NCBI GenBank assembly: GCA_024226935.1
Contig: JAAELK010000222.1
Coordinates: forward strand, 27,237 to 91,236
DNA from: Desulfobacteraceae bacterium
GTDB taxonomy: Bacteria; Desulfobacterota; Desulfobacteria; Desulfobacterales; Desulfobacteraceae
Length of the DNA stretch: 64,000 bases
Direction: 5' to 3'
Below the pieces are notes generated by a model. The model did not search any database. It saw only the letters and a list, made by a program, of their open reading frames with translations, and had not been told where the DNA came from. Positions 1-57,936 of the stretch are shown one piece after another. Position 1 is the first letter of the stretch, and each line of letters opens with the position of its first letter. The translations under genes and the position numbers were made by a program.

Positions 1-1244
1 CCGATATCATCCGAATGACTGCCGATCTTTTAAACGGTGGAAAAAACGCCGTTGGCTCCATCACTTCGGGGGGCACGGAAAGCATCTTGCTGGCAATCAA
101 AACCTATAGGGACTATGCCAAAAAGAAAAGGCCCTGGATAGTCCGGCCCAATATAATCGTCCCGGAAACAATCCATGTTGCCTTTGAAAAGGCGGCCAAG
201 TATTTCAATGTCAAAATAATCCATGCTCCACTTAAAAAAGATTATACTGTGGATGTAAATAAAGTAAAAAAACTGATCAACAAAAACACAATTCTTCTGG
301 TTGGTTCAGCTCCCAATTATCCCCAGGGAGTTATAGATCCCATTGAAGAGTTAAGCAAACTTGCTTTACAAAAAAATTTACCCCTCCACGTTGACGCCTG
401 TCTGGGTGGATTCTTTCTGCCTTTTTTAAAAATGTTAGGATACAATATTCCAAAGTTTGATTTTTCCCTTCCCGGCGTGACTTCAATATCAGCCGATGTA
501 CACAAATATGGATATGCAGCCAAGGGGGCCAGCACTATTTTATATAAAAGCATGACCTATATGAAACACCAGTTTTTTGTTTACGAAAACTGGCCGGGGG
601 GTGTTTATGCAGGCCCCGGGATATTGGGAACCCGTGCCGGAGGCCCCATAGCTTCAGCATGGGCCAGTATGAATAAAATGGGGGAAGAGGGTTATAAAAA
701 CCTGGCCAAAGTGGTCATGGAAACAACAAACAAATTAATAAACGGGATCAATACAATCCCGGAATTAGAAATCATGGGTAAGCCCGTGATGGGTGTTATA
801 GGATATCGATCCAATTCAAAAAAAGTAAACATTTATGCGGTTGGAGAGATAATGGAACAAAAAGGATGGAATGTCGACCGCCTTCAAAAACCGGAAGGAC
901 TTCATGCAATGGTATCACCTATCCATGAAAAATACGTCGGGCAATATCTTGAGGATTTAAAAACATCGGTTGCAAAAGTCCTGGCAAATCCCGGCCTCGC
1001 AACTTCGGGAGGTGCCGCAATGTATGGTATGATCGCCAAAATCCCCCTTCGCAGCATGGTAAAAAGCACCATTGCAAAGATGATGGAAGATATGTACGAA
1101 GTATCAGGCAAAATGCCCGACTTGAACGATACAGACATCCGGGAAGAAAAAAATATTACCATGACACTTGGAAAATACTATCTTAAGATAATTGAATATT
1201 TTGCCAGGGTTAGGGAAAAATCCTCAGATCATAACCTGGATTGA
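1..1244 (+). CDS. PLP-dependent group II decarboxylase / sphingosine-1-phosphate-lyase-like enzyme (5' end outside window)
   Basis: The frame is open from the window edge. It has the 'SISADVHKYGYAAKGAS' PLP-lysine (HK) motif and 'SGGTESILLA', typical of SPL/GAD-type fold-type I enzymes. Confidence 0.75.
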   Translation, partial: DIIRMTADLLNGGKNAVGSITSGGTESILLAIKTYRDYAKKKRPWIVRPNIIVPETIHVAFEKAAKYFNVKIIHAPLKKDYTVDVNKVKKLINKNTILLVGSAPNYPQGVIDPIEELSKLALQKNLPLHVDACLGGFFLPFLKMLGYNIPKFDFSLPGVTSISADVHKYGYAAKGASTILYKSMTYMKHQFFVYENWPGGVYAGPGILGTRAGGPIASAWASMNKMGEEGYKNLAKVVMETTNKLINGINTIPELEIMGKPVMGVIGYRSNSKKVNIYAVGEIMEQKGWNVDRLQKPEGLHAMVSPIHEKYVGQYLEDLKTSVAKVLANPGLATSGGAAMYGMIAKIPLRSMVKSTIAKMMEDMYEVSGKMPDLNDTDIREEKNITMTLGKYYLKIIEYFARVREKSSDHNLD

Positions 1245-1254
1245 CTCCATACAA

Positions 1255-1280
1255 GATGCGGTATCGCAAGATACCGCATC
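1255..1280 (+). terminator. Perfect 11-bp stem / GCAA loop hairpin just after the stop of the PLP enzyme gene
   Basis: The sequence is gatgcggtatc-gcaa-gataccgcatc. No clear T-run follows, so terminator function is uncertain. Confidence 0.35.
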
Positions 1281-1325
1281 GTCCAGGCACAAAAAAAAGA
1301 CGGAGCCCTTCCGGGGCACAAATTT

Positions 1326-1359
1326 ACTAAGTATTTTCAAGCAGTTTTTGCCAGAACAA
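1326..1359. repeat. Direct repeat, left copy (34 bp, 1 mismatch versus 4765-4798); an orphan copy of the GNAT gene 3' end
   Basis: actaagtattttcAagcagtttttgccagaacaa matches actaagtattttcCagcagtttttgccagaacaa. The reverse complement encodes LFWQKLLENT*, identical to the GNAT C-terminus. Confidence 0.85.
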
Positions 1360-1409
1360 CTGTTTAAATTCTTCTGATATGATATATCTTTTCTCGTATA
1401 ATAGCAGTA

Positions 1410-3131
1410 TTATATATTTTTATTGCTTTCAATTCTAAACAGCTTATCATTTTCAGACAACTCAAGAATAAAGTAATCTTCATTTTTTAATTCATTTGGG
1501 AGCTTGTCTTTAAGTATTGATGCTACAAATTGTATTTCATTTTTATTTACCAATTCAGCAATTTTTACCAACTGATTATCATGCATAAGCTCTTTCTTGT
1601 CATTCAACAAGAAATGCATACATGGGATATTTTCTTCGTCAGCAAAAAAAGTATATGCAATATCAAAACAAGAAATTTCACCTTGTTTTTTTCCGGTGCT
1701 AAAGTTTGTGTTAAAAGCAGTAAATTTATACAATTTTTGCCCTTTTTTATTGAGCACCTTGTCGTATTTTAATGCATATTGTTCGCCATATAATAAGTCA
1801 GAAGTAGAAGAAAAATATTTATTAAACTTATTTAATTGACGTTTTACAATACCCTCAAAACTGCCAGAAAAAAGTTCCTTGTCTATTGACTCCAAGTCAC
1901 CTTCATAAGATCTTAGGTTTTCTTCCACGTCCTCCAATTGTTGAATAATGCTTTCATATTCTCCCTTATTTTTATATTTTTCATTAAGCTCAACAATTAA
2001 TCTCTCCAATTCTTCAAATGAATCAGTTTTTGAAATGGCAGAAGATAATTTTGCTTCTTTTTCCAACAATGTACTGAGAATCAGATTTTTTTCATCTATT
2101 TTATCTATAAGTACAGGTAACTCTTTAGCTATATAGTTGGCTCTTTCCTGAATCATTTGATTATGGTATTGCACCATATCTTCAAATGTTTTCTGAATTG
2201 AAGTCATATTGCTAATAGCTTGGTCATAAATAATACGCAACTGCTGTAAATCTATTTTTGAAGCACTGGATGTTAATTCTCTTGTTGTTTCATCAATCAA
2301 ATCTTTCCTTAAATTTAACGCACCAAGTTCAGAGCTTGTCAAGTTAATTTGATATTTTAAATGATTAAGATTTTGTAAATCTTTTTCAAAATCCTCATTA
2401 ATATTTAAGTTTGATTTCTTTTTATCCAGTACTTCTATCTCATTCTCGATTAACGATAATGCCACTTCATATGCTGATTTCGTCTGGTTTTTTTCTAAGC
2501 GTTTTCTAAAAGTGTCTTCCTGTTTTATTTTTTGGAGTATTTCCTGTTTATCACTCCCTTTTATGAATTCACAGCCTAAAAGAAACAAATGTAATGTTTC
2601 ATACTCTGCATCAGAAGTATACCTGTCAAGCGTCTTGAGTGTGTTGTTAATGCTTAAATCTTTATATCGTATATTGTGAGATATTATCTGTCTAAAGCTA
2701 GGTTTTTTTGCTGTATGTTCAGGAAAGAATAGTTCTGTTAACTTCGGTTCAAATTCACCTTCAACATAATTTACATCATTAATTCTTCTTACTATTTTAT
2801 TGCGTGACAAAAAGTTCCGTTCAATAATTATATTTTGAGCATCTTCATTATCCAAGTTTTCAGCCAGGCATAATGTAATTAAAATATCTTTCTCAACTAA
2901 ATAATCTTTTACTAATTTATATATCTCCTTTTTAGACTCAGGATCTTCATAAATATTCTTTGGATTCGCTCCCAAACAAAAATCAATTAGCTTTAGAACT
3001 GTGGTTTTCCCAACGCTATTTCCAGTAATATGCCCTTCACTTGAATCAACAATAAGATTAATGCCTTTATGAAATTTAATGTTTCGAATAACATTAGAAT
3101 GGCTTGAAATCATAAGATATTTTAAAAACAT
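1410..3131 (-). CDS. ABC-three-component (ABC-3C) system ATPase, DUF2326-like coiled-coil ABC ATPase
   Basis: 573 aa. The N-terminus reads 'IRNIKFHKGINLIVD...TGNSVGKTT' (Walker A). A long K/E/L/N-rich predicted coiled coil follows, then a C-terminal 'CMHFLLNDKKELMHD' region. The start overlaps the upstream ORF by 10 nt. Confidence 0.75.
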   Translation of the reverse strand: MFLKYLMISSHSNVIRNIKFHKGINLIVDSSEGHITGNSVGKTTVLKLIDFCLGANPKNIYEDPESKKEIYKLVKDYLVEKDILITLCLAENLDNEDAQNIIIERNFLSRNKIVRRINDVNYVEGEFEPKLTELFFPEHTAKKPSFRQIISHNIRYKDLSINNTLKTLDRYTSDAEYETLHLFLLGCEFIKGSDKQEILQKIKQEDTFRKRLEKNQTKSAYEVALSLIENEIEVLDKKKSNLNINEDFEKDLQNLNHLKYQINLTSSELGALNLRKDLIDETTRELTSSASKIDLQQLRIIYDQAISNMTSIQKTFEDMVQYHNQMIQERANYIAKELPVLIDKIDEKNLILSTLLEKEAKLSSAISKTDSFEELERLIVELNEKYKNKGEYESIIQQLEDVEENLRSYEGDLESIDKELFSGSFEGIVKRQLNKFNKYFSSTSDLLYGEQYALKYDKVLNKKGQKLYKFTAFNTNFSTGKKQGEISCFDIAYTFFADEENIPCMHFLLNDKKELMHDNQLVKIAELVNKNEIQFVASILKDKLPNELKNEDYFILELSENDKLFRIESNKNI

Positions 3132-3346
3132 AATTCAACCTTGTTTTTTTTTAATTCAGCAATATTTATGAGATAAAGCCAGTCAAGACATAAAACAAAC
3201 ACGGGAAAAGACATTCCCTGAACTTCTTTTGATCTTGCATATAGATCTAGCATCTCAAGCTTATCTTGGTTTTGTAAAACCTGCAAAACAATTGCTCCAT
3301 TATAATAGATGCTGTTTTCAGGATGAATGTTATCAGGAAGCAGCAT
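3122..3346 (-). CDS. Small protein in the position of the ABC-3C 'middle component'
   Basis: 74 aa with no motif I recognise. It is translationally coupled on both sides, with a 14-nt overlap with the effector gene stop and a 10-nt overlap with the ATPase start. Confidence 0.6.
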   Translation of the reverse strand: MLLPDNIHPENSIYYNGAIVLQVLQNQDKLEMLDLYARSKEVQGMSFPVFVLCLDWLYLINIAELKKNKVELCF

Positions 3347-4301
3347 AATTATAACCTTCTGGGTTTTCTAAAATCTTGCATCGAATAAAAGCATCAACCA
3401 CTAAAATATCGACACATAATTCTAACTCATCTATCGGGATATGGATGTAATTTGCACTTACAAGGATTTTGTTTTTTATCTCTTCAATAACAGAATAAAA
3501 AATTTCATCGGAATTTCTATTATTTTTTAGGTTCAAATATGTTCGCTTCATCGTGGCTAATACTGAATTACTCTTATTATTTCCTAAACTATCAAATTCA
3601 GAATACTTGGCATCAACCCTTCCATGATATAAAACATACTCATCAATTGTGTCTTTTGCCGAAGCCAAATCGTTATAAGATATTTTTCTATTTACTTCAA
3701 AACGAATTAAACGGTCTGATTTATTTGCTTCATCCCACTGTTCCTTGGATAGAATATTAATTATTGTTGCCAAATTAGAATCTAACTTTACAATATCAAC
3801 TCCCCCCCCAAGCTCTTTTTTAATTTGCTCATAAACCATTTTTTGCCCATCGACATCCATATTTAATATATTGCGGAGAATAGAGGTGATGTCATAAATA
3901 TCTACTGACGGAGTAAATGATATACCGTGGGGATTTACAAAATTCTTTTTTCTTAAATTTGAAGCATCATTGGCAATAGATATAAATTTAAACGTATAGC
4001 CTAAATATTTTTTCATTATTTTTTTTGATAATGCCGACTCAACTTTTTGTTTGGTATTTGTTGAAGAAACTTGAATAATAATTTTATTTTTATCATCTAC
4101 TAAATCTATAGCTTCCACATTTTGAAGACGGGCATTTAAGTTCTCTAAATTATAACTATAAATCACATTAAACAAATGCTGATAAAAATTCTCAGAATGC
4201 ATATGCAAACTCAACATATTTAGCTTGCCGCCAGTAGCAATCCTATTAGCAAAAATATGCAGTTTCTCTTCAATGTAAGAATAGTATTTAGTCTGATTCA
4301 T
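3333..4301 (-). CDS. SMEK-domain protein (predicted ABC-3C effector component)
   Basis: 322 aa. The N-terminal 'LSLHMHSENFYQHLFNVIYSYNLENLN...VEAIDLVDDKNKIIIQVSSTNTKQKV' is recognised as a SMEK domain. It is the first gene of the three-gene unit. Confidence 0.7.
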   Translation of the reverse strand: MNQTKYYSYIEEKLHIFANRIATGGKLNMLSLHMHSENFYQHLFNVIYSYNLENLNARLQNVEAIDLVDDKNKIIIQVSSTNTKQKVESALSKKIMKKYLGYTFKFISIANDASNLRKKNFVNPHGISFTPSVDIYDITSILRNILNMDVDGQKMVYEQIKKELGGGVDIVKLDSNLATIINILSKEQWDEANKSDRLIRFEVNRKISYNDLASAKDTIDEYVLYHGRVDAKYSEFDSLGNNKSNSVLATMKRTYLNLKNNRNSDEIFYSVIEEIKNKILVSANYIHIPIDELELCVDILVVDAFIRCKILENPEGYNYAAS

Positions 4302-4634
4302 TATTTTTCATTCATCCAGTTCCCGCATTCACATATAACAAGAACATGTGTGGTTCTGTATATCTTACATTCTTTTCATAGTTTGGCAATGAAATCCAGG
4401 TCAAGTACAATTTTTCTAACTGGATATCACTCCAATGTAAAATTATCAAGATTTGATATCATCATTAAAATACCAGGGGACTTCAAAAAAGATATAATGG
4501 CCTGTTGATTAACAGCGAAATTGCACCGGATCAATATATTCATTACAGAAAGTGGCTGCTATATTATCTTGATTCTTGCAAAAAAATACACCCACGCATA
4601 TTTTTGATCCAAACAGCTTTTTGCTTTTTCTGGA

Positions 4635-4768
4635 AAAACCCGTGCTTGGATGAAAGCTTGCCCATATGCAAGGCGCAAGAAAGTTTGAAACCGGAGTGTA
4701 CTCCAGTACATGAGGTTTCAGGCTTTTGCAGCAACACGGCAGATGGGTGAGTTTTCGTTCAAACACTA
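4635..4768. repeat. Structured ~135-bp repeat element, copy A (second copy at 29044-29179)
   Basis: Roughly nine in ten positions match copy B by eye. It contains nested hairpins (cttgc-N6-gcaag, tgtac-N4-gtaca) and a 10-13-bp outer stem. It ends on the stop codon of the GNAT gene. Confidence 0.8.
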
Positions 4769-4798
4769 AGTATTTTCCAGCAGTTTTTGCCAGAACAA
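4765..4798. repeat. Direct repeat, right copy (within the 3' end of the GNAT gene)
   Basis: See 1326-1359. Confidence 0.85.
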
Positions 4799-5257
4799 AG
4801 CTCTGCCCATCCGGGGGTCAAGCTCATAGCCCGCAAATCCAAATTTTTTATAGGAGTTCAGGGCTACTTCATTACCCTCCAGAACCTCAAGGGTTATTTT
4901 GCAGCAATCCCTGTCTTTTGCTATCTGCTCTACTTTTTCCAGCATTAATTGACTGACGCCAAGACCACGAAACTCACTGATAACAATAATATCATGGATA
5001 TTGACCAGGGGCTTGCACTTAAAGGTGGAAAAAGCTTCAAAACAATTTATAAGACCCGCAGCCCTATTGTCCACGTAACAAAGGACGCTAAAAGCATGGG
5101 GTATTTTTGATAAATTTTTTGCCAGGTTCTCTTTTACATTTTCAGCCAGGGGTGTACCCCCACCCATGGGATCATTTGCATAGGAATCCAAAAGATAACC
5201 CATATCGGTTCCATGGCGAATATTGTCAAAGTCAGCTATTATTATTTCAATTTCCAT
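4766..5257 (-). CDS. GNAT family N-acetyltransferase
   Basis: 163 aa. It has the acetyl-CoA motif A 'FRGLGVSQLMLEKVEQIA' and the typical GNAT C-terminal 'ALNSYKKFGF'. Confidence 0.85.
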   Translation of the reverse strand: MEIEIIIADFDNIRHGTDMGYLLDSYANDPMGGGTPLAENVKENLAKNLSKIPHAFSVLCYVDNRAAGLINCFEAFSTFKCKPLVNIHDIIVISEFRGLGVSQLMLEKVEQIAKDRDCCKITLEVLEGNEVALNSYKKFGFAGYELDPRMGRALFWQKLLENT

Positions 5258-5328
5258 TGATCAATTGTTCTCCTCTATCTATCCTTTATTGCTCTATCCA
5301 GCGTGAAATTGTCAAACAGCCACCAAAC

Positions 5329-5685
5329 CTAGACATACTCATCATATTTTTTGGACGATCCCCTCACTTTTTCGGCGGGATATTTGATTGCATTTTTCTC
5401 TATTTTATTGTCGACTACCTCTTCGATATCGATGTCCAGCCTATCGGCCAGACGAAATAAATACATTGCTACATCTGCAATTTCTTCACCGATTTCGTGT
5501 TTTTTAACTGGATCGGCAACGATATTTTCAGACTGTTCCATATTCAACCATTGAAATTTCTCAAGTAATTCTGAAGCCTCTATTGATAAGGCAATGGCTA
5601 AATTTTTAGGGTTATGAAATTGATTCCAATCCCTTTCATCTGCAAATTTTTGAAGTTGTTTTTGAATCTGTTTAATACCCATCAT
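5329..5685 (-). CDS. MazG-like nucleotide pyrophosphohydrolase (dCTPase-like all-alpha NTP-PPase)
   Basis: 118 aa. Motifs present are 'FADERDWNQFHNPKNLAIALSIEASELLEKFQW' and 'EEIADVAMYLFRLADRLDID'. Confidence 0.8.
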   Translation of the reverse strand: MMGIKQIQKQLQKFADERDWNQFHNPKNLAIALSIEASELLEKFQWLNMEQSENIVADPVKKHEIGEEIADVAMYLFRLADRLDIDIEEVVDNKIEKNAIKYPAEKVRGSSKKYDEYV

Positions 5686-5974
5686 GTTTCCTGGTCCAAT
5701 TTATATGAAACTCCCGATATAGCAGAAGAGAGTTTCTATCTTTGTTGTGGGCGGAACCCAGGATTAAATCCTTGGTCCGCCCATGGCGGTTATTTTCAAT
5801 TTTCCCGGATACTCTTGTGTACCCAGGCTGTGCATTGTGCAAGGCCACAAAAAAAAATTAAATCTTCCTTTAATATTAATAAAACCCTATAGATATCAAA
5901 TATTTGCCGGAATATCACCATATTTTTTTTACCAGGCGGGTAAAAAAATTTTCCCCCGCAAATATTTTTCCAGG

Positions 5975-6003
5975 TTGACTTTCCTGGCCCAGCCCATTAA
6001 AGA
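5975..6003 (+). promoter_or_regulatory. Sigma70-like promoter (TTGACT-17 nt-TAAAGA) upstream of the protease/CPBP genes; part of a module duplicated at 36985-37013
   Basis: The hexamers have 17-nt spacing. The spacer 'ttcNNNNcccaNgcccat' and the downstream leader are shared with the GGDEF gene upstream region. Confidence 0.5.
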
Positions 6004-6065
6004 GGAATAAGGAAAGGGTATTCTTAAATCACAGGCCCGAAAAATATAAAACATCAGGAAAAACC

Positions 6066-6776
6066 GTGACTTCAATAAAATCAATTCCAGTCAAAACCTT
6101 GGTAGTTCTATTTTTGTCCTGGTTTTTAATCTGTCCCCATTGCTTTGCAGGCAAAAATTCACAGGCAACCTATTCTAAAATAGCCGCAAAAGTGATGCCC
6201 GCCGTTGTCACGATTATTGTTTATGATTACAATGGCAAAATCGAAAATATAGGCAGCGGTTTTTTCTACAATGAAAAGGGAGATATCCTGACAAACAGCC
6301 ATGTACTTACCAAAAACACAAGGGCTGAAATTAAAACAAAGTCGGGAAAAAAGTATCCCATCGGATCAATTATTGAGAGAAATGAAAAAACAGATATTGT
6401 CCGGGCCCACACCCGCATTTCCAATAGGACTCCTTTTTTAAGGATTTCCCGGAACATTCCTGCCATGGGTAATCAGATCATGGTTGCAGGAAGCCCCATG
6501 GGCCTGGAACAAACCATCACCAACGGTATTATCTCAGCATGGCGAAAAATTCCAGCCTGGGGCAGAGTAATGCAGATATCGGCTCCCATATCACCAGGTT
6601 CCAGCGGCGGACCGGTTTTAAACATGGCAGGGGAAGTGGTTGGAATAGCTACCTGCCAAATGATCCAGGGACAAAACCTTAATTTTGCCGTTCCCGTTGA
6701 CAATATTTTTAATGAGCCAAAATCCACAAAGCTGAAATTTTATAAAAATGAGAAAGGCATCACCATAATTGAATAG
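6066..6776 (+). CDS. Secreted trypsin-like serine protease (S1C/DegP-type protease domain, no PDZ)
   Basis: 236 aa with a GTG start. It has a signal-like N-terminus, 'GSGFF...ILTNSHVL' (His) and 'SPGSSGGPVLN' (Ser). Confidence 0.8.
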   Translation: MTSIKSIPVKTLVVLFLSWFLICPHCFAGKNSQATYSKIAAKVMPAVVTIIVYDYNGKIENIGSGFFYNEKGDILTNSHVLTKNTRAEIKTKSGKKYPIGSIIERNEKTDIVRAHTRISNRTPFLRISRNIPAMGNQIMVAGSPMGLEQTITNGIISAWRKIPAWGRVMQISAPISPGSSGGPVLNMAGEVVGIATCQMIQGQNLNFAVPVDNIFNEPKSTKLKFYKNEKGITIIE

Positions 6777-7395
6777 ATTTCCAAGGGGCTGGTATCTTCT
6801 GGTTTCTATTTTCATAATTTTGGTAATTGATACCGGAATATCCTTTCCTGCCCATTTATCTCCCCTGGCCCTTATTGCAATCACCAGATTTGTCCAAACC
6901 CTGGTTCTTCTGGCCCTGATTTTCCTGGGTTCCGGGGGCACACGTTCTGTAGGACTTACCGGAAACAATTTATTTTCAGGGATAAAAACAGGCCTTCTCT
7001 GGTCTTGCCTTGCTGGAGCTTGCGCAGTTGGGGGGATAGGGCTTTTATATCTTGCAGGCATACATTTGCCAGGTCAAATTTATGCCTTCCCAGGAGGGAA
7101 AAATATTTTTGCATATTTAGGGATCGCCTGTTTTTTAAGCCCCATTGCTGAAGAACTGTTTTTCCGGGGATTTTTATATTCTTATTTTAGAAAAAAAGGC
7201 CTCTTTGTCGGCCTTGCCGCAAGCTCCTTTTTATTTGCCCTGGCCCACTTTTCCCAAGGTGGTCTGCCCCTGATTCAGTTTGCAGGAGGCATTTTATTTG
7301 CCCTTTCCTTTGAATATTCAAAAAGCCTGGCGGCCCCTTTGATCATACATATTTCAGGAAATCTGGCAATTTTTGCCTGGGGATATTTTTTATAA
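6769..7395 (+). CDS. CPBP family intramembrane glutamic endopeptidase (CAAX/Abi-like)
   Basis: 208 aa and multi-TM. It has the motifs 'PIAEELFFRGFLY', 'FALAHF' and 'IIHISGNL'. It overlaps the protease gene by 8 nt. The start (TTG) is uncertain. Confidence 0.8.
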   Translation: MNRFPRGWYLLVSIFIILVIDTGISFPAHLSPLALIAITRFVQTLVLLALIFLGSGGTRSVGLTGNNLFSGIKTGLLWSCLAGACAVGGIGLLYLAGIHLPGQIYAFPGGKNIFAYLGIACFLSPIAEELFFRGFLYSYFRKKGLFVGLAASSFLFALAHFSQGGLPLIQFAGGILFALSFEYSKSLAAPLIIHISGNLAIFAWGYFL

Positions 7396-7659
7396 AAAAA
7401 ATTTAACCCACCAACTTTACTTCTGCTTTAAGATGCCATGATCCCCATGGGGAAAATAACAAACAAATTGCATTATAAAATTTAATGGGATACGTTTAAT
7501 TTTACTTATTTCTTAAAGACAATAAGTTGTAAAAAAAGTTCTTTAATTAAAGTTACCGACAATTTAAAATACCCAAGTTTCCTGTTTTACTTTTTATACC
7601 AAATTAAAACTCCATGAAGATGACTATTAATCTCTAATCAGATAAATCCGGGGGGAAAT

Positions 7660-10600
7660 ATGATTAATATTAACAAGGCGGCTAAACGAGAACTTGTCAA
7701 ATTAAAAGGGGTCGGTGCAATATCGGCCGAAAAAATTTCTGAATTTCGTAAGAAAGGTGGGGTAATAAACTCCATTTCCGAACTAAAAGTTATTTGTAAT
7801 ATTCAGGAAAGATATGTGGAAGCACTCAAAAGTGAAATTGCTTTTTCCGATGTGAATGCTGAATTGGAAAAACCCCACGGACCCTGGCAAACCATAAATC
7901 CCGGTTTTGATAATTCCATGACGGATGTAAAATTTCATCTGTTTAATTTTAAAGTCAAATTCCAGGGACAAGATGATACCAACCTGCCTGATATTACTGG
8001 TTATCAATTAAGCGTCGGTTACAAAACAACAAGATCCCGTGCAAGAAGTAAAATATCTTATACTCAAAAAATTATAAATTATAATCTTGATAATTCATCC
8101 CATCTGGATATAGCCATACCAAAAACCAATCTTGCCGAAAACAGTTTTAATCTTATTCTTAAACGTCCCGATGGGGATCAAATTTATAACTCAACTCTCC
8201 AGATAGATGAAAACAAAGAAGTAATTATTAATCTTCCAGTTTTTGATAATGCAAAACTTTTTGTTAAAATATTAAAGCAGCCCGGAGTTAATTATGAAGG
8301 TTATAAACTTGAGTATACCTTAAAAATAAACCGGGGCGGATCGGGCATCGATACCCGCAAAAAGAACCATGAATTTGCATCGGTGAATGAAATTGCCCTG
8401 GAATGGGACTGCTTTGGATCCATTGAAAATATAAATATAGAACTATTAAGTCCAAATGGAGAACAAATCCTTGAACTGGACAAAACCCTGGAAGAGATTG
8501 AGACGGTTAATAACAAGAAAATTATTGAAATAAAATTACCCGAACCCGCAATAATTGATTACACGATACAGCTTGCAGAAGATATCAATTTGTTAACCAA
8601 CCCCTACCTTGACCACAAAATCATTCTTACCTTTGATCTGATTAATCCCCAAACCCTTAATTTTATCAAACGAATAAGTCGTTCATTTGATATTGATTCA
8701 AAGGGGCGGGCAAAAATAGTTTTTAATCACTACGCCCTTGTTGAGATGATGTCCCTAGAAGTAAAAGCACCGGGGGGAGAAATTATAAGTAAAAAAGAGA
8801 TCGCCCATGATGAGATAATCCCCAGTGGTGAGGTCAAAATCAATGTTCCTCCCCGGAAGATAAGTCTTGCCCAAAATATTGAAAAAATGCCGGAACGCCC
8901 AAAAAAAACAACATGCAGGGTTATCGACGCCGACGGGGGAAAAAAATTTACAGATGTCCAGGTAATCATTTATACAGCCACCAGGCAAAACCCTGAAGAA
9001 GACGATTTCAAGGCACTGATTATCAACCGCACTGAAACCAACGGCTATTTTATTATCGATACTCCCCAGGATTATTTTACTGGAGCCTTTGCACGAATCG
9101 GCATTCCGGGAAAAGAATATACCCATGGCAAAACAATTGATGTTCCTGTTCTCTTGGATGAAGACAATGTTATAATTATTACAAACGGTGAACCTGTTAT
9201 CAGCAAAAAACTATTTTTCCCGGCATCAATAATCCTAGTAGTCGATTCCGACCTTGAAGATGTTGAGGAATGTAATAAAAACAATTGTAACGATCTGAAT
9301 TTCCATAAACATAAAAAAATCATAGATGAGTTTTCTTATTATACTGTGGTAAGAACCACGGAACCTTCAATCCAGGGTTATACCCTTGAAGAAGATGCCC
9401 AGATGACTGTGGCTCAAATTTTAGATATCATACCATTATCTTCACAAAGCGATGGCAAAAAGATAAGTATCCCATTTGAACTTCATCAAAAAAATATTCG
9501 TAAAAATATTCTTCTCAAACATATCAATGACAAAAAAGGCCTGACACCGACTACCTTGATAAAAGCCATCAATGAAAGCGACGCACAAAAACTTCGCCAG
9601 GAGATAAAACCTGCTGCAAAAATCAAAGCCATCGGGCGGCACACTTTAGATATGGACAATGCCATCGACTGGGACAAGGATCCTACAATTTACCAGGCAA
9701 CAACACTTTCCCACGGGCATCTTTTGCAATACAAACAAGAATGGGTCAATGACGGCTACTCCATGGGAGATCTTTTATATAGCCTTCCCTTGGCTCCCGG
9801 ACAAAAAAAACAAATAGTTGTCCTTGATTGGGAACGCCGCGAAACAGCAAGCCGGGAAGAATCCCAGGAATATAACGAGCAATTGAATAATTTCCTGGGT
9901 AAAGACAGGGATGTGAGTGAAGTGGTATTTGGGATACTCAATGAAAACACGGCCGGAGGATCATCTGCAAGAACTTCTTCGGCAAGTGGCGGCCTAGGTC
10001 TTGGTTTTGCCGGTGAAAAATTCAGTGGCGTACTTGGAGTTTCCGGAGGCGCAAGCAAGGCAAGTTCCCATGCATGGCAGGATTCTTCACGATCTTTATC
10101 CTTAAATGATCTTCAGCAGATCAGGGATAAAACCATACAATCGGCCAATGCAACACGGGGTCAGCGTTCCACAGTAGTACAAAGCGCAGGCCAGGCGGAA
10201 AGATTCGCCGTTGAAACAGAAGTGGTTGCCAACCACAATCATTGCCATTCGCTGACCATACAATATTTTGAAGTCCTGCGGCACCTGAATGTCAACCAGC
10301 GGCTTTCAAGCGTCCAGGAATGTTTGTTTATTCCATTGATAATGTCCTCTTTTGATAATCCAAAAATTCTCAGGTGGAGGGAGAGTCTTTATAACCATAT
10401 ATACCCAAGTTACCTGCGCAGGGGTTTTAGCGCAATTGACCGCATTGAACATGATTATGAGGGCAGCGACCTTCCAGAGGGCAGTTTTGCAGATGCCGAT
10501 CTCATCAGCCTTGAAGGACATCTTTATATTAAATTTGAAATACCCTCACCAATAGATTTGGCTACCCATCAAACCCAGGCAGATCTTCTTGCAGCCTATG

Positions 10601-57564: not shown

Positions 57565-57936
57565 CTATTTCGGCCGCTTGGCTCCATATTTGGAACGCCC
57601 CTGCCTTCTGTCATCAACCCCCAAGGTATCCAAGGCCCCTCTGACAATATGATAGCGAACACCAGGTAAATCCTTTACCCTGCCACCTCTTACCAGAACA
57701 ACCGAATGTTCCTGCAGATTATGACCCATACCCGGAATATATGCAGCGACTTCCATACCGGTGGTCAAACGAACCCTTGCCACTTTTCTCAAAGCAGAGT
57801 TAGGTTTTTTCGGAGTTGACGTATACACCCTGGTACACACACCACGTTTTTGAGGTCCACCCTTCAAAGCAGGCGTACTAACCTTTTTTTCTGCTTTCTT
57901 CCTACCTTTTCTAACCAACTGATTTATGGTCGGCAT
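57565..57936 (-). CDS. rpsL: 30S ribosomal protein S12
   Basis: The internal ATG at 57936 was chosen (SD 'aaggag' upstream). The protein starts '[14 protein letters not shown]'. Confidence 0.96.

What the first reader, a model, noticed from the sequence alone, without database searches (positions are those of the whole stretch)
1326..4798. 34-bp direct repeat duplicating the GNAT gene 3' end brackets the ABC-3C cassette: att-like scars without a recombinase
Positions 1326-1359 and 4765-4798 are identical at 33 of 34 positions. The right copy is the last 10 codons plus stop of the GNAT gene. The left copy is an orphan fragment encoding the same LFWQKLLENT*.

The 3.4 kb between them holds only the repeat element at 4635-4768, a promoter region and the three ABC-3C genes, and is much more AT-rich than its surroundings. 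This is the signature of site-specific insertion into a gene 3' end with target regeneration. However, no integrase or transposase is present, so this may be a minimal, trans-mobilised defence islet.
Basis: seen in the sequence. Interest (0 to 1): 0.6.

Follow-up and report, generated by a model that had tools for sequence, protein, structure and literature searches.

The report
Dead integron bracketed by gene-end duplication
The 34-base repeat is real, but the DNA it brackets is not a recombinase-free islet: it is the stump of an integron (a bacterial gene-capture platform), with a three-gene phage-defence operon at its capture site, lodged at the end of an acetyltransferase gene.

Summary
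The repeat is confirmed. Positions 1326-1359 and 4765-4798 match at 33 of 34, occur nowhere else in the 6.09-Mb genome, and both read LFWQKLLENT*.

The claim that no integrase is present is wrong.
- Positions 4461-4641 are the first ~60 codons of an integron integrase gene. The start codon is lost and there are two frameshifts. Identity to intact intI genes of Desulfobacterales is 77%.
- Positions 4334-4460 are the matching attI/promoter block. Its homology to five intact integrons stops at a GTT, 32 nt before the first ABC-3C gene. The defence operon therefore occupies the first-cassette position.
- The "repeat element" is a 5'-truncated MITE (miniature transposon). It inserted at the acetyltransferase (GNAT) stop codon and was later fused to the intI stub by a deletion at a GAAAA microhomology. 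Its last two bases supply the repeat's first two, so the true duplication is 32 bp.

Integron recombination makes no such duplication, and I found no attC. The repeat therefore records a separate, one-off event whose mechanism is unresolved.

This scan has met decayed integrons with defence cassettes before, on other DNA. Interest is moderate.

The parts
3..1244 (+). 3' part of a PLP-dependent decarboxylase gene; the left flank of the bracket
   Evidence: PF00282, E 1e-19. The full gene is C222:27068-28480. Orthologues in same-genus genomes have a different downstream neighbour, so synteny breaks just after this gene.
1257..1320 (.). Perfect 11-bp hairpin (1257-1282), then a small hairpin and a T8 run on the minus strand (1290-1320). 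Probably the native terminator region of GNAT, now downstream of the ABC-3C operon.
   Evidence: Read directly from the sequence. The consensus terminator scan did not call it, so this role is inferred.
1326..1359 (-). Left repeat copy: an orphan fragment encoding the last 10 codons plus stop of GNAT. The duplicated part proper is 1328-1359.
1360..1409 (-). 50-nt spacer between the ABC ATPase stop and the orphan. It has no attC-like hairpin. The junction reads CAG|TTG on the cassette strand.
   Evidence: ssDNA folds give z -0.3 to -1.4. A genuine attC of a related integron gives z -3.6.
1410..3131 (-). ABC-3C ABC ATPase, 573 aa, with a DUF2326 C-terminus
   Evidence: PF10088, E 5e-22. PADLOC PDC-M68B 2e-30 and LmuB 1.5e-9.
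3122..3346 (-). ABC-3C middle component 6, 74 aa
   Evidence: PF20293, E 8e-27.
3333..4301 (-). ABC-3C effector, 322 aa, with SMEK_N and CTD10 domains
   Evidence: PF21941, E 4e-40, and PF20275, E 8e-35.
4302..4333 (-). 32-nt leader of the operon. On the cassette strand it begins TTATAT, directly after the attI crossover G.
   Evidence: Homology to five intact integrons ends at 4333/4334.
4334..4460 (+). attI-like block with divergent promoter-like sites. About 8 further copies are scattered in the genome.
   Evidence: The block is conserved upstream of intI in L148, L150, L151, L152 and L153, starting at TAACAAG, which is CTTGTTA on the cassette strand. Genome copies. Promoter-like hexamers lie at + 4383-4411 and - 4389-4362.
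4461..4641 (+). Integron-integrase pseudogene stub of about 60 codons. Lesions: ATG to ATC at 4461-4463, -1 after 4476, -1 after 4585, +3 at 4601-4603.
   Evidence: phmmer against 1.84 billion proteins gave 16 hits, best 1e-8, all at N-termini. The hits carry PF13495. Full-length relatives are named integron integrase and score 369-378 bits on TIGR02249, cut-off 265. blastn to L148: 309 nt, 78%, E 8e-63. Lesions.
4635..4766 (+). 5'-truncated copy of a MITE. It lacks about 11 nt of the left inverted repeat and the left target duplication. It is fused to the intI stub at a GAAAA microhomology (4636-4641).
   Evidence: 54 blast hits in the genome, 33 full length. The 6-bp flanks TAnnTA are identical in 15 of 22 full copies. 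It forms a long hairpin, -64 kcal/mol, z -8.5. Rfam gives no match.
4765..4798 (-). Right repeat copy: the functional 3' end of GNAT. 4767-4772 (TAAGTA) is the MITE target site, and 4765-4766 are MITE bases.
4766..5257 (-). GNAT acetyltransferase gene, 163 aa, intact
   Evidence: PF00583, E 1e-14. It is single copy in the genome. The nearest homologues are 71-73% identical, and those that carry a source name are Gammaproteobacteria.

Best explanation
The 3.4 kb between the repeats is a dead integron head plus its cargo. It is not a recombinase-free islet.

On the cassette (minus) strand the order is:
1. the GNAT end;
2. a truncated MITE;
3. an intI stub, antisense;
4. attI with promoter-like sites;
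5. the SMEK-MC6-ABC defence operon, starting 32 nt after the attI crossover GTT;
6. a 50-nt spacer;
7. the orphan GNAT end;
8. a T-run.

Shown:
- the identity of each piece;
- that the operon sits exactly where a first cassette sits;
- that a MITE landed on the GNAT stop codon;
- that a microhomology deletion then removed most of intI together with the MITE's left end.

Inferred:
- The operon is now read from the promoter-like site in the attI relic.
- The whole block entered the 3' end of GNAT in one recombination with incoming DNA that carried its own copy of at least the last 32 bp of GNAT. This could have been a Campbell-type single crossover or a homology-anchored illegitimate join. It regenerated GNAT and stranded the old end next to its terminator.
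- The event was not catalysed by the integron integrase, which makes no target duplication.
- The element is now immobile.
For: - Repeat real and unique.
- AT-rich cargo.
- intI stub.
- attI block and its GTT boundary in five independent integrons. The same boundary occurs in the other genome copies.
- Intact relatives of this integron carry large defence-type genes next to attI: GmrSD/Schlafen-type in L148 and an OLD-type nuclease in L153.
- MITE family, its target duplication and its habit of sitting on stop codons (11 of 70 ends).
- Both partners are truncated at the 4636-4641 junction.
- No tyrosine or serine recombinase domain on the 99-kb contig.
- No intact integron integrase in the assembly.
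- The cassette is widely transferred.
Against: - No empty site or excised form could be examined, so insertion is inferred from anatomy alone.
- No attC-like hairpin follows the operon. The operon is therefore not shown to have entered as a canonical cassette.
- None of 48 other loci with this ABC ATPase has an integron integrase within 8 kb.
- The duplication mechanism is not identified, and nothing comparable flanks five intact integrons, five other attI relics of this genome or 40 other cassettes.
- The PLP gene's downstream side is a synteny breakpoint relative to same-genus genomes. The orphan could therefore sit at a rearrangement junction rather than at an old GNAT end.
- The repeat's extra 'AC' fits chance (about 1 in 10-16) but also fits copying of the right copy after the MITE arrived.
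Confidence: 0.5

Rival explanations
1. The bracket is a minimal defence islet whose 34-bp ends are att sites. It is inserted and excised in trans by a tyrosine integrase encoded elsewhere, and it is still mobile.
For: The layout is a unique direct repeat, with one copy regenerating a gene's 3' end. The genome holds 26 tyrosine-recombinase matches on other contigs.
Against: - The only recombinase trace inside is an integron integrase stub, and that family does not use long identity cores.
- No other copy or near-copy of the 34-mer exists.
- No repeats flank 40 other cassettes.
- No duplicated GNAT ends occur in 62 homologue loci.
- Two resident-repeat events (MITE insertion, then deletion) have accumulated inside, which points to a long-settled locus.
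Confidence: 0.1
2. The orphan is a short filler copy. During a rearrangement that joined the PLP-gene region to the integron block, 34 nt were copied from the nearby GNAT end into the junction, after the MITE had inserted.
For: The first two bases of the repeat are MITE terminal bases. Synteny breaks immediately after the PLP gene. Microhomology-type deletions are evident in this genome, both at the intI/MITE junction here and as internal intI deletions in other relics.
Against: The copy would have to start, by accident, within 2 nt of the MITE/GNAT boundary and keep the reading frame and stop. A T-run lies just downstream of the orphan, as expected for a native gene end. AC before a TAnnTA target occurs by chance in about 3 of 27 copies.
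Confidence: 0.12
3. The integron has always been next to GNAT, with intI convergent on GNAT. The ABC-3C operon entered attI as a normal cassette. The orphan is what is left after deletions in the array.
For: The operon starts exactly at the attI crossover. One GNAT homologue locus (L032) also has an integron integrase convergent about 1 kb away.
Against: A 33/34 copy of the GNAT end at the far side of the cassette is not produced by cassette capture or by deletion. No attC was found. Only 1 of 64 GNAT loci has an integrase nearby.
Confidence: 0.15
4. Chance similarity or an assembly artefact.
For: The genome is a 590-contig metagenome bin.
Against: No match in 100 shuffles. The longest exact run is 20 nt, interrupted by a mismatch, so it is not a k-mer join. 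The repeat keeps a reading frame. No alternative contig holds either flank.
Confidence: 0.03

Closest known systems
Decayed chromosomal integrons with intI pseudogenes; the In0 and CALIN categories of Cury et al. 2016 (PMC4889954)
   Same: An integron-integrase remnant sits next to its attI, with AT-rich accessory cargo transcribed away from it. The integrase was lost by deletion.
   Different: Only one cargo unit is present and no attC was detected, so it fits neither CALIN (at least 2 attC) nor In0 (intact intI). The whole thing lies between direct repeats of a host gene end, which is not a described feature of integrons.
Anti-phage defence cassettes in sedentary chromosomal integrons (Darracq et al. 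2024, bioRxiv 10.1101/2024.07.02.601686)
   Same: A defence system sits at an integron capture site. Relatives of this integron also hold defence-type genes next to attI.
   Different: That paper stresses small, streamlined systems fitted to cassette size limits. Here the cargo is a full three-gene, 2.9-kb ABC-3C operon without a recognisable attC, in Desulfobacterales-type rather than Vibrio integrons.
Integrative genomic islands that insert into the 3' end of a gene and regenerate it, leaving attL/attR direct repeats (textbook knowledge)
   Same: Direct repeats bracket foreign DNA. One repeat completes the target gene and the other is an orphan end.
   Different: There is no island-type integrase next to an att site, no recurrent use of this target in 62 homologue loci, and no empty site available.
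Homology-facilitated illegitimate recombination in naturally transformable bacteria (de Vries and Wackernagel 2002; cited from memory, not read here)
   Same: One homologous anchor (GNAT and beyond) plus one illegitimate joint would bring in foreign DNA without any recombinase.
   Different: That process usually deletes recipient DNA rather than duplicating 32 bp. Competence of this organism is unknown.
ABC-3C / Lamassu-type defence systems (Pfam MC6, SMEK_N, CTD10; reviewed in PMC10586767)
   Same: The same three components are present in the same order.
   Different: Nothing unusual in the genes themselves. Only the genomic setting is of note.

Membership tests
Integron (Cury et al. 2016 definitions) | Integron integrase gene (TIGR02249-type tyrosine recombinase) | tested here: not met
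   Only the first ~60 codons survive, with a lost start and two frameshifts. The catalytic domain is absent: no PF00589 on the contig. The stub's intact relatives pass TIGR02249 at 369-378 bits, cut-off 265. This is therefore an intI pseudogene, not an intI.
Integron (Cury et al. 2016 definitions) | attI site next to intI, with the cassette joined at G|TT | tested here: met
   The 127-nt block 4334-4460 aligns to the intI-upstream block of five intact integrons. All lose similarity at the same TAACAAG / CTTGTTA point. Function of the site was not tested.
Integron (Cury et al. 2016 definitions) | attC site at the 3' end of the cassette | tested here: inconclusive
   No attC-like hairpin lies in 1283-1450 by folding, z -0.3 to -1.4. 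A control attC in L150 gives z -3.6. A strict core-motif regex also failed on the control, and no attC covariance model was available.
Integron (Cury et al. 2016 definitions) | Cassette promoter Pc in or near attI/intI | tested here: inconclusive
   A minus-strand TTGCCA-16-TAAGAT lies at 4389-4362 and a plus-strand TTGGCA-17-TACAAT at 4383-4411. However, the number of promoter-like sites in the region equals the shuffled expectation.
Integrase-borne genomic island at a gene 3' end | Direct repeats at both ends, one completing the target gene | tested here: met
Integrase-borne genomic island at a gene 3' end | Island-encoded integrase that uses the repeat as its att core | tested here: not met
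   Every base between the repeats is accounted for. The only recombinase trace is the integron-type stub.
Integrase-borne genomic island at a gene 3' end | Empty site in relatives, or an excised circle | not testable with these tools
ABC-3C (Lamassu-like) system | ABC ATPase, middle component and effector in one operon | tested here: met
   PF10088, PF20293, and PF21941 with PF20275. The same trio is conserved in 40 loci.
MITE | Short, multi-copy, with terminal inverted repeats, a target-site duplication and no ORF | tested here: met
   54 hits, 33 full length. Inverted ends are TAGTGGCTGACCG... / ...CAAGCACTA. The 6-bp flanks are identical in 15 of 22 copies. The parent transposase was not identified.
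XerCD/dif-integrating elements (IMEX) | Flanking sites that resemble the 28-bp dif (two 11-bp arms around a 6-bp spacer) | tested here: not met
   By inspection the 34-mer has no such dyad. It lies in a coding 3' end.

The most novel reading that the evidence does not exclude
In this Desulfobacterales lineage, the integron head with its first gene (attI, promoter and one defence-type gene) may itself be a unit that gets copied around the chromosome. At least eight attI relics sit next to different genes (KAP NTPase, HNH protein, STAND-like NTPase and others), and intI is cut down in each. The 32-bp target duplication here would then be the one preserved footprint of how such a unit enters a gene end.
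Probability: 0.08. Interest if true: 0.7.

Novelty: new variant of a known kind. Interest (0 to 1): 0.4.

Why it matters
- It replaces an attractive but wrong reading ("defence islet that moves without its own recombinase") with a concrete anatomy in which every base of the interval is assigned.
- It adds a case of a full multi-gene Lamassu-like system parked at an integron capture site outside the Vibrio model. There is no recognisable attC, whereas current work stresses small cassettes.
- It shows a gene-end duplication around an integron remnant that ordinary integron recombination does not explain.
- If same-species genomes or the original reads become available, the locus offers a clean test of how integron-borne defence genes get fixed in a chromosome.

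Tried and rejected
- Exact-protein look-ups of GNAT and the ABC ATPase found nothing on record.
- The metagenome scan with GNAT gave 64 loci at up to 72% identity, none syntenic.
- Same-genus genomes carry GNAT and the PLP gene in other contexts.
- The nearest GNAT in 5.8 billion proteins is 73% identical.
- Rfam gave no match in 1-9000.
- Pfam on the small ORFs of 4257-4766 and 1192-1377 found nothing. The stub emerged only from a tblastx lead and the exhaustive phmmer search.
- No homology extends beyond the repeat on either side.
- A search for flanking repeats found none around 40 other cassettes, five intact integrons or five other attI relics.
- None of 62 GNAT homologue loci has a duplicated 3' end.
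- The strict attC core-motif regex failed on the positive control and was discarded.
- The GNAT cassette of L150 is unrelated to this GNAT.
- Phage records hold no match.
- Plasmid matches include a large Clostridium botulinum plasmid carrying the same three-gene system at 66% nt identity. It was named only and not fetched.
- MITE-as-attC was considered and rejected, because the copies are dispersed and have direct 6-bp target duplications.
- dif/XerCD and transposase or casposase-type target duplication were considered and rejected. There is no dif-like dyad, and no such enzyme or element ends are present.
Full report
THE OBSERVATION

Positions 1326-1359 and 4765-4798 are identical at 33 of 34 positions. 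A search allowing three mismatches finds only these two copies in the window, and none in 100 dinucleotide-preserving shuffles. The same search finds only these two in the whole 6.09-Mb, 590-contig assembly. Both copies translate on the minus strand to LFWQKLLENT*, and the single difference is a synonymous CTG/CTT leucine codon. The right copy is the real end of a 163-aa GNAT gene. GC is 0.27-0.33 between the copies and 0.40-0.46 outside. Identity stops sharply on both sides. The longest exact run is 20 nt, so a k-mer misjoin is not a plausible source.

WHAT LIES BETWEEN THE COPIES

- an effector with SMEK_N and CTD10 domains (3333-4301);
- middle component MC6 (3122-3346);
- a DUF2326 ABC ATPase (1410-3131).

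PADLOC gives a candidate family for the ATPase and a weak LmuB match.

The 464 bases between the operon and GNAT are not a plain promoter region. They consist of three pieces, each with relatives elsewhere.

Piece 1: the MITE (4635-4766).
- It is one copy of a family with 54 blast hits in this genome, 33 of them full length.
- The family has terminal inverted repeats (TAGTGGCTGACCG... / ...CAAGCACTA) and folds as a long hairpin.
- It carries a 6-bp direct flank, TAnnTA, that is identical on both sides in 15 of 22 full copies. It is therefore a MITE.
- Because the element begins and ends TA|G, its ends often form a TAG. At 11 of 70 ends that TAG closes an open frame of 137-1241 codons. The family habitually sits on stop codons.
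- In the window its right end is ...CAAACAC followed by TAAGTA. The first two bases of the 34-mer (AC) are thus MITE bases, and TAAGTA is its target site.
- The left copy also has AC before TAAGTA. Among other copies AC precedes the target in about 3 of 27, so this is compatible with chance.
- The true duplication is therefore 32 bp, and its left limit is set by the MITE.
- The window's copy lacks about 11 nt of its left end and its left target duplication.

Piece 2: the integrase stub (4461-4641).
- A tblastx lead prompted an exhaustive phmmer search of the 55-residue translation of 4472-4636 against 1.84 billion proteins. It returned 16 hits at E up to 0.001, best 1e-8, at 45-68% identity, each at the extreme N-terminus of the hit.
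- Several of the hits carry the PF13495 integrase SAM-like domain.
- Full-length relatives are about 433-aa proteins that sources name integron integrase, from Desulfobacula, Desulfocicer and other Desulfobacterales. They score 369-378 bits on TIGR02249, cut-off 265.
- At the DNA level, 309 nt of the window match the attI-plus-intI region of an intact integron (L148) at 78%, E 8e-63.
- Relative to that gene, the window copy has ATC for ATG at 4461-4463, single-base deletions after 4476 and 4585, and a 3-nt insertion at 4601-4603.
- Homology runs to ...CTGGAAAAA, where the MITE's ...(G)AAAACCCGTG takes over. The two truncated partners share GAAAA. This is the scar of a deletion that removed intI from about codon 61 onward, whatever lay beyond it, and the MITE's left end.

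Piece 3: the attI block (4334-4460).
- It is the block that lies upstream of intI in five intact integrons from different contexts.
- In all of them, and in the window, similarity ends at the same point, TAACAAG on the plus strand. On the cassette strand this reads CTTGTTA, followed by unrelated sequence.
- That is the structure of an attI joined to a cassette at G|TT.
- The SMEK start codon is 32 nt beyond it. The operon therefore sits in the first-cassette position.
- Promoter-like hexamers face both ways inside the block. Their number does not exceed the shuffled expectation, so this is only an indication.

Every base between the repeats is now assigned:
- 1360-1409: spacer
- 1410-4301: ABC-3C operon
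- 4302-4333: leader
- 4334-4460: attI block
- 4461-4641: intI stub
- 4635-4766: truncated MITE
- 4767-4798: duplicated GNAT end

IS THE OPERON AN INTEGRON CASSETTE?

Partly.
- For: the 5' junction is cassette-like.
- For: intact relatives of this integron have large defence-type genes next to attI. L148 has a 1563-aa protein followed by a GmrSD/Schlafen-type gene, L153 has an OLD-type nuclease, and L150 has a GNAT cassette with a good attC hairpin.
- Against: the 130 nt after the ATPase stop fold no better than shuffled sequence.
- Against: none of 48 loci with related ATPases has an integron integrase within 8 kb.

The same three-gene unit is found at 57-78% aa identity across many phyla, and on some plasmids. 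It clearly travels by several routes.

WHAT MADE THE REPEAT?

Integron recombination exchanges strands at G|TT and duplicates nothing, so the repeat records another event. Comparable repeats are absent from:
- 40 other cassettes;
- five intact integrons;
- five other attI relics in this genome;
- 62 GNAT homologue loci.

It is therefore a one-off.

The layout fits insertion into GNAT by recombination with incoming DNA that carried a copy of the gene's last 32 or more bases. The relevant features are an intact gene on one side and an orphan end followed by a T-run on the other. The event could have been a single crossover of a circle, or a homology-anchored illegitimate join from a conspecific donor in which the integron already lay beside GNAT. 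I cannot tell these apart.

Three points weaken the insertion model:
- The PLP gene's downstream side is a synteny breakpoint relative to same-genus genomes.
- The extra AC could mean that the left copy was made from the right one after the MITE arrived.
- One GNAT homologue (L032) lies convergent to an integron integrase.

A genome-wide scan found 17 unique direct-repeat pairs of 24-120 bp spaced 0.8-30 kb apart. This pair has the largest GC drop.

WHY THE EMPTY-SITE TEST FAILED

- Exact look-ups found nothing.
- The best GNAT relatives are 71-73% identical and non-syntenic.
- Same-genus genomes are only 55-62% identical in these proteins.

COMPARISON WITH WHAT IS KNOWN

Decayed integrons with intI pseudogenes are described (PMC4889954), as are defence genes in integron cassettes (10.1101/2024.07.02.601686). 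This scan has reported several decayed integrons on other DNA. Three things differ here:
- a full three-gene operon sits at attI without a detectable attC;
- a gene-end duplication surrounds the remnant;
- at least eight attI relics are scattered in one genome.

The assembly has no integron integrase above the family cut-off. The contig has no tyrosine or serine recombinase domain. The locus is most likely fixed.

VERDICT

- The insertion reading is plausible but unproven.
- The "no recombinase, trans-mobilised" reading is not supported.
- Interest is moderate.

Noticed in passing
window 4635-4766, and G000 contigs such as C428:8139-8290 and C253:9988-10135: A MITE family of about 150 nt with at least 33 full-length copies and a TAnnTA target duplication. 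At 11 of 70 ends the junction TA|G is the stop codon of an open frame of 137-1241 codons. The element appears able to land in a stop codon and restore a TAG.
   Followed up: partly
G000 C222:2389-2542, C544:24553-24710, C76:61605-61742, C522:2085-2215, C346:3128-3200, C67:678-781, C411, C435: At least eight attI-like blocks of the same integron family are scattered in one genome, many within 3 kb of a contig end. Each lies next to a different gene: KAP NTPase, HNH-domain protein, STAND-like NTPase (weak match), TPR protein, O-methyltransferase. No intact intI is present.
   Followed up: partly
G000 C522:2200-2400, C76:61449-61622, C457:31969-32109; loci L148:7300-7430, L150:7303-7430, L151:1565-1620: Several relics are internal deletions of intI that fuse the first few codons to the last few codons. 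A stretch of about 130 nt after the intI stop (…AGCTYCGC…CTGTCGNTTAC…CTTATATAA…) is conserved between integrons that sit in unrelated chromosomal contexts. Its role is unknown.
   Followed up: partly
G000 C457:32098-32424 (-): A second N-terminal stub of the same integrase family, about 130 codons with an internal stop.
   Followed up: partly
G000 C33:44-852: A broken integron-integrase-like gene in two frames (101 and 75 bits on TIGR02249, cut-off 265). It is the nearest thing to an IntI in the assembly.
   Followed up: no
G000 C256:49101-49187 and 57594-57680: An 87-bp direct repeat at 96.6% identity duplicates the 5' end and upstream region of a 236-aa gene that reads as a glycosyltransferase by its N-terminal motif (no family search was run). 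It brackets 8.5 kb of lower-GC DNA. By eye, the ORFs there look like an RND-type transporter, a LuxR/MalT-type regulator and a lipoprotein-carrier-like gene. No recombinase-like ORF was seen by eye. This is a second gene-end duplication around an insert in the same genome.
   Followed up: partly
G000 C423:23048-23084 and 27069-27105: A 37-bp direct repeat (35 of 37) brackets 4 kb of lower-GC DNA whose ORFs look like anaerobic sulfite-reductase-type genes (by eye, no family search). One copy lies inside a gene that reads as a histidine kinase.
   Followed up: no
L148:1-5709 and L153:4043-5731: In intact integrons of this family, the genes next to attI are large and defence-like: a 1563-aa protein plus a GmrSD_N/SLFN_AlbA_2 protein in L148, and an OLD-type TOPRIM/AAA nuclease in L153. 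Neither shows an obvious attC after the first gene.
   Followed up: partly
L032:8001-10490: A GNAT homologue (66% aa identity) lies convergent to an integron integrase about 1 kb away in a marine metagenome contig. It is the only one of 64 such loci with this arrangement.
   Followed up: partly
window 1-1244 and G000 C222:22933-28480: Same-genus genomes keep the 385-aa gene and the PLP decarboxylase together. Downstream of them they have the homologue of C222:22933-23676, which in this genome lies upstream. A rearrangement breakpoint therefore sits just after the PLP gene.
   Followed up: partly
window 4766-5257: The GNAT's nearest relatives are 71-73% identical, and those that carry a source name are Gammaproteobacteria (Shewanella, Colwellia, Pseudoalteromonas). 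Same-genus homologues are only 54-57% identical and lie elsewhere. The GNAT itself may have been acquired horizontally.
   Followed up: no
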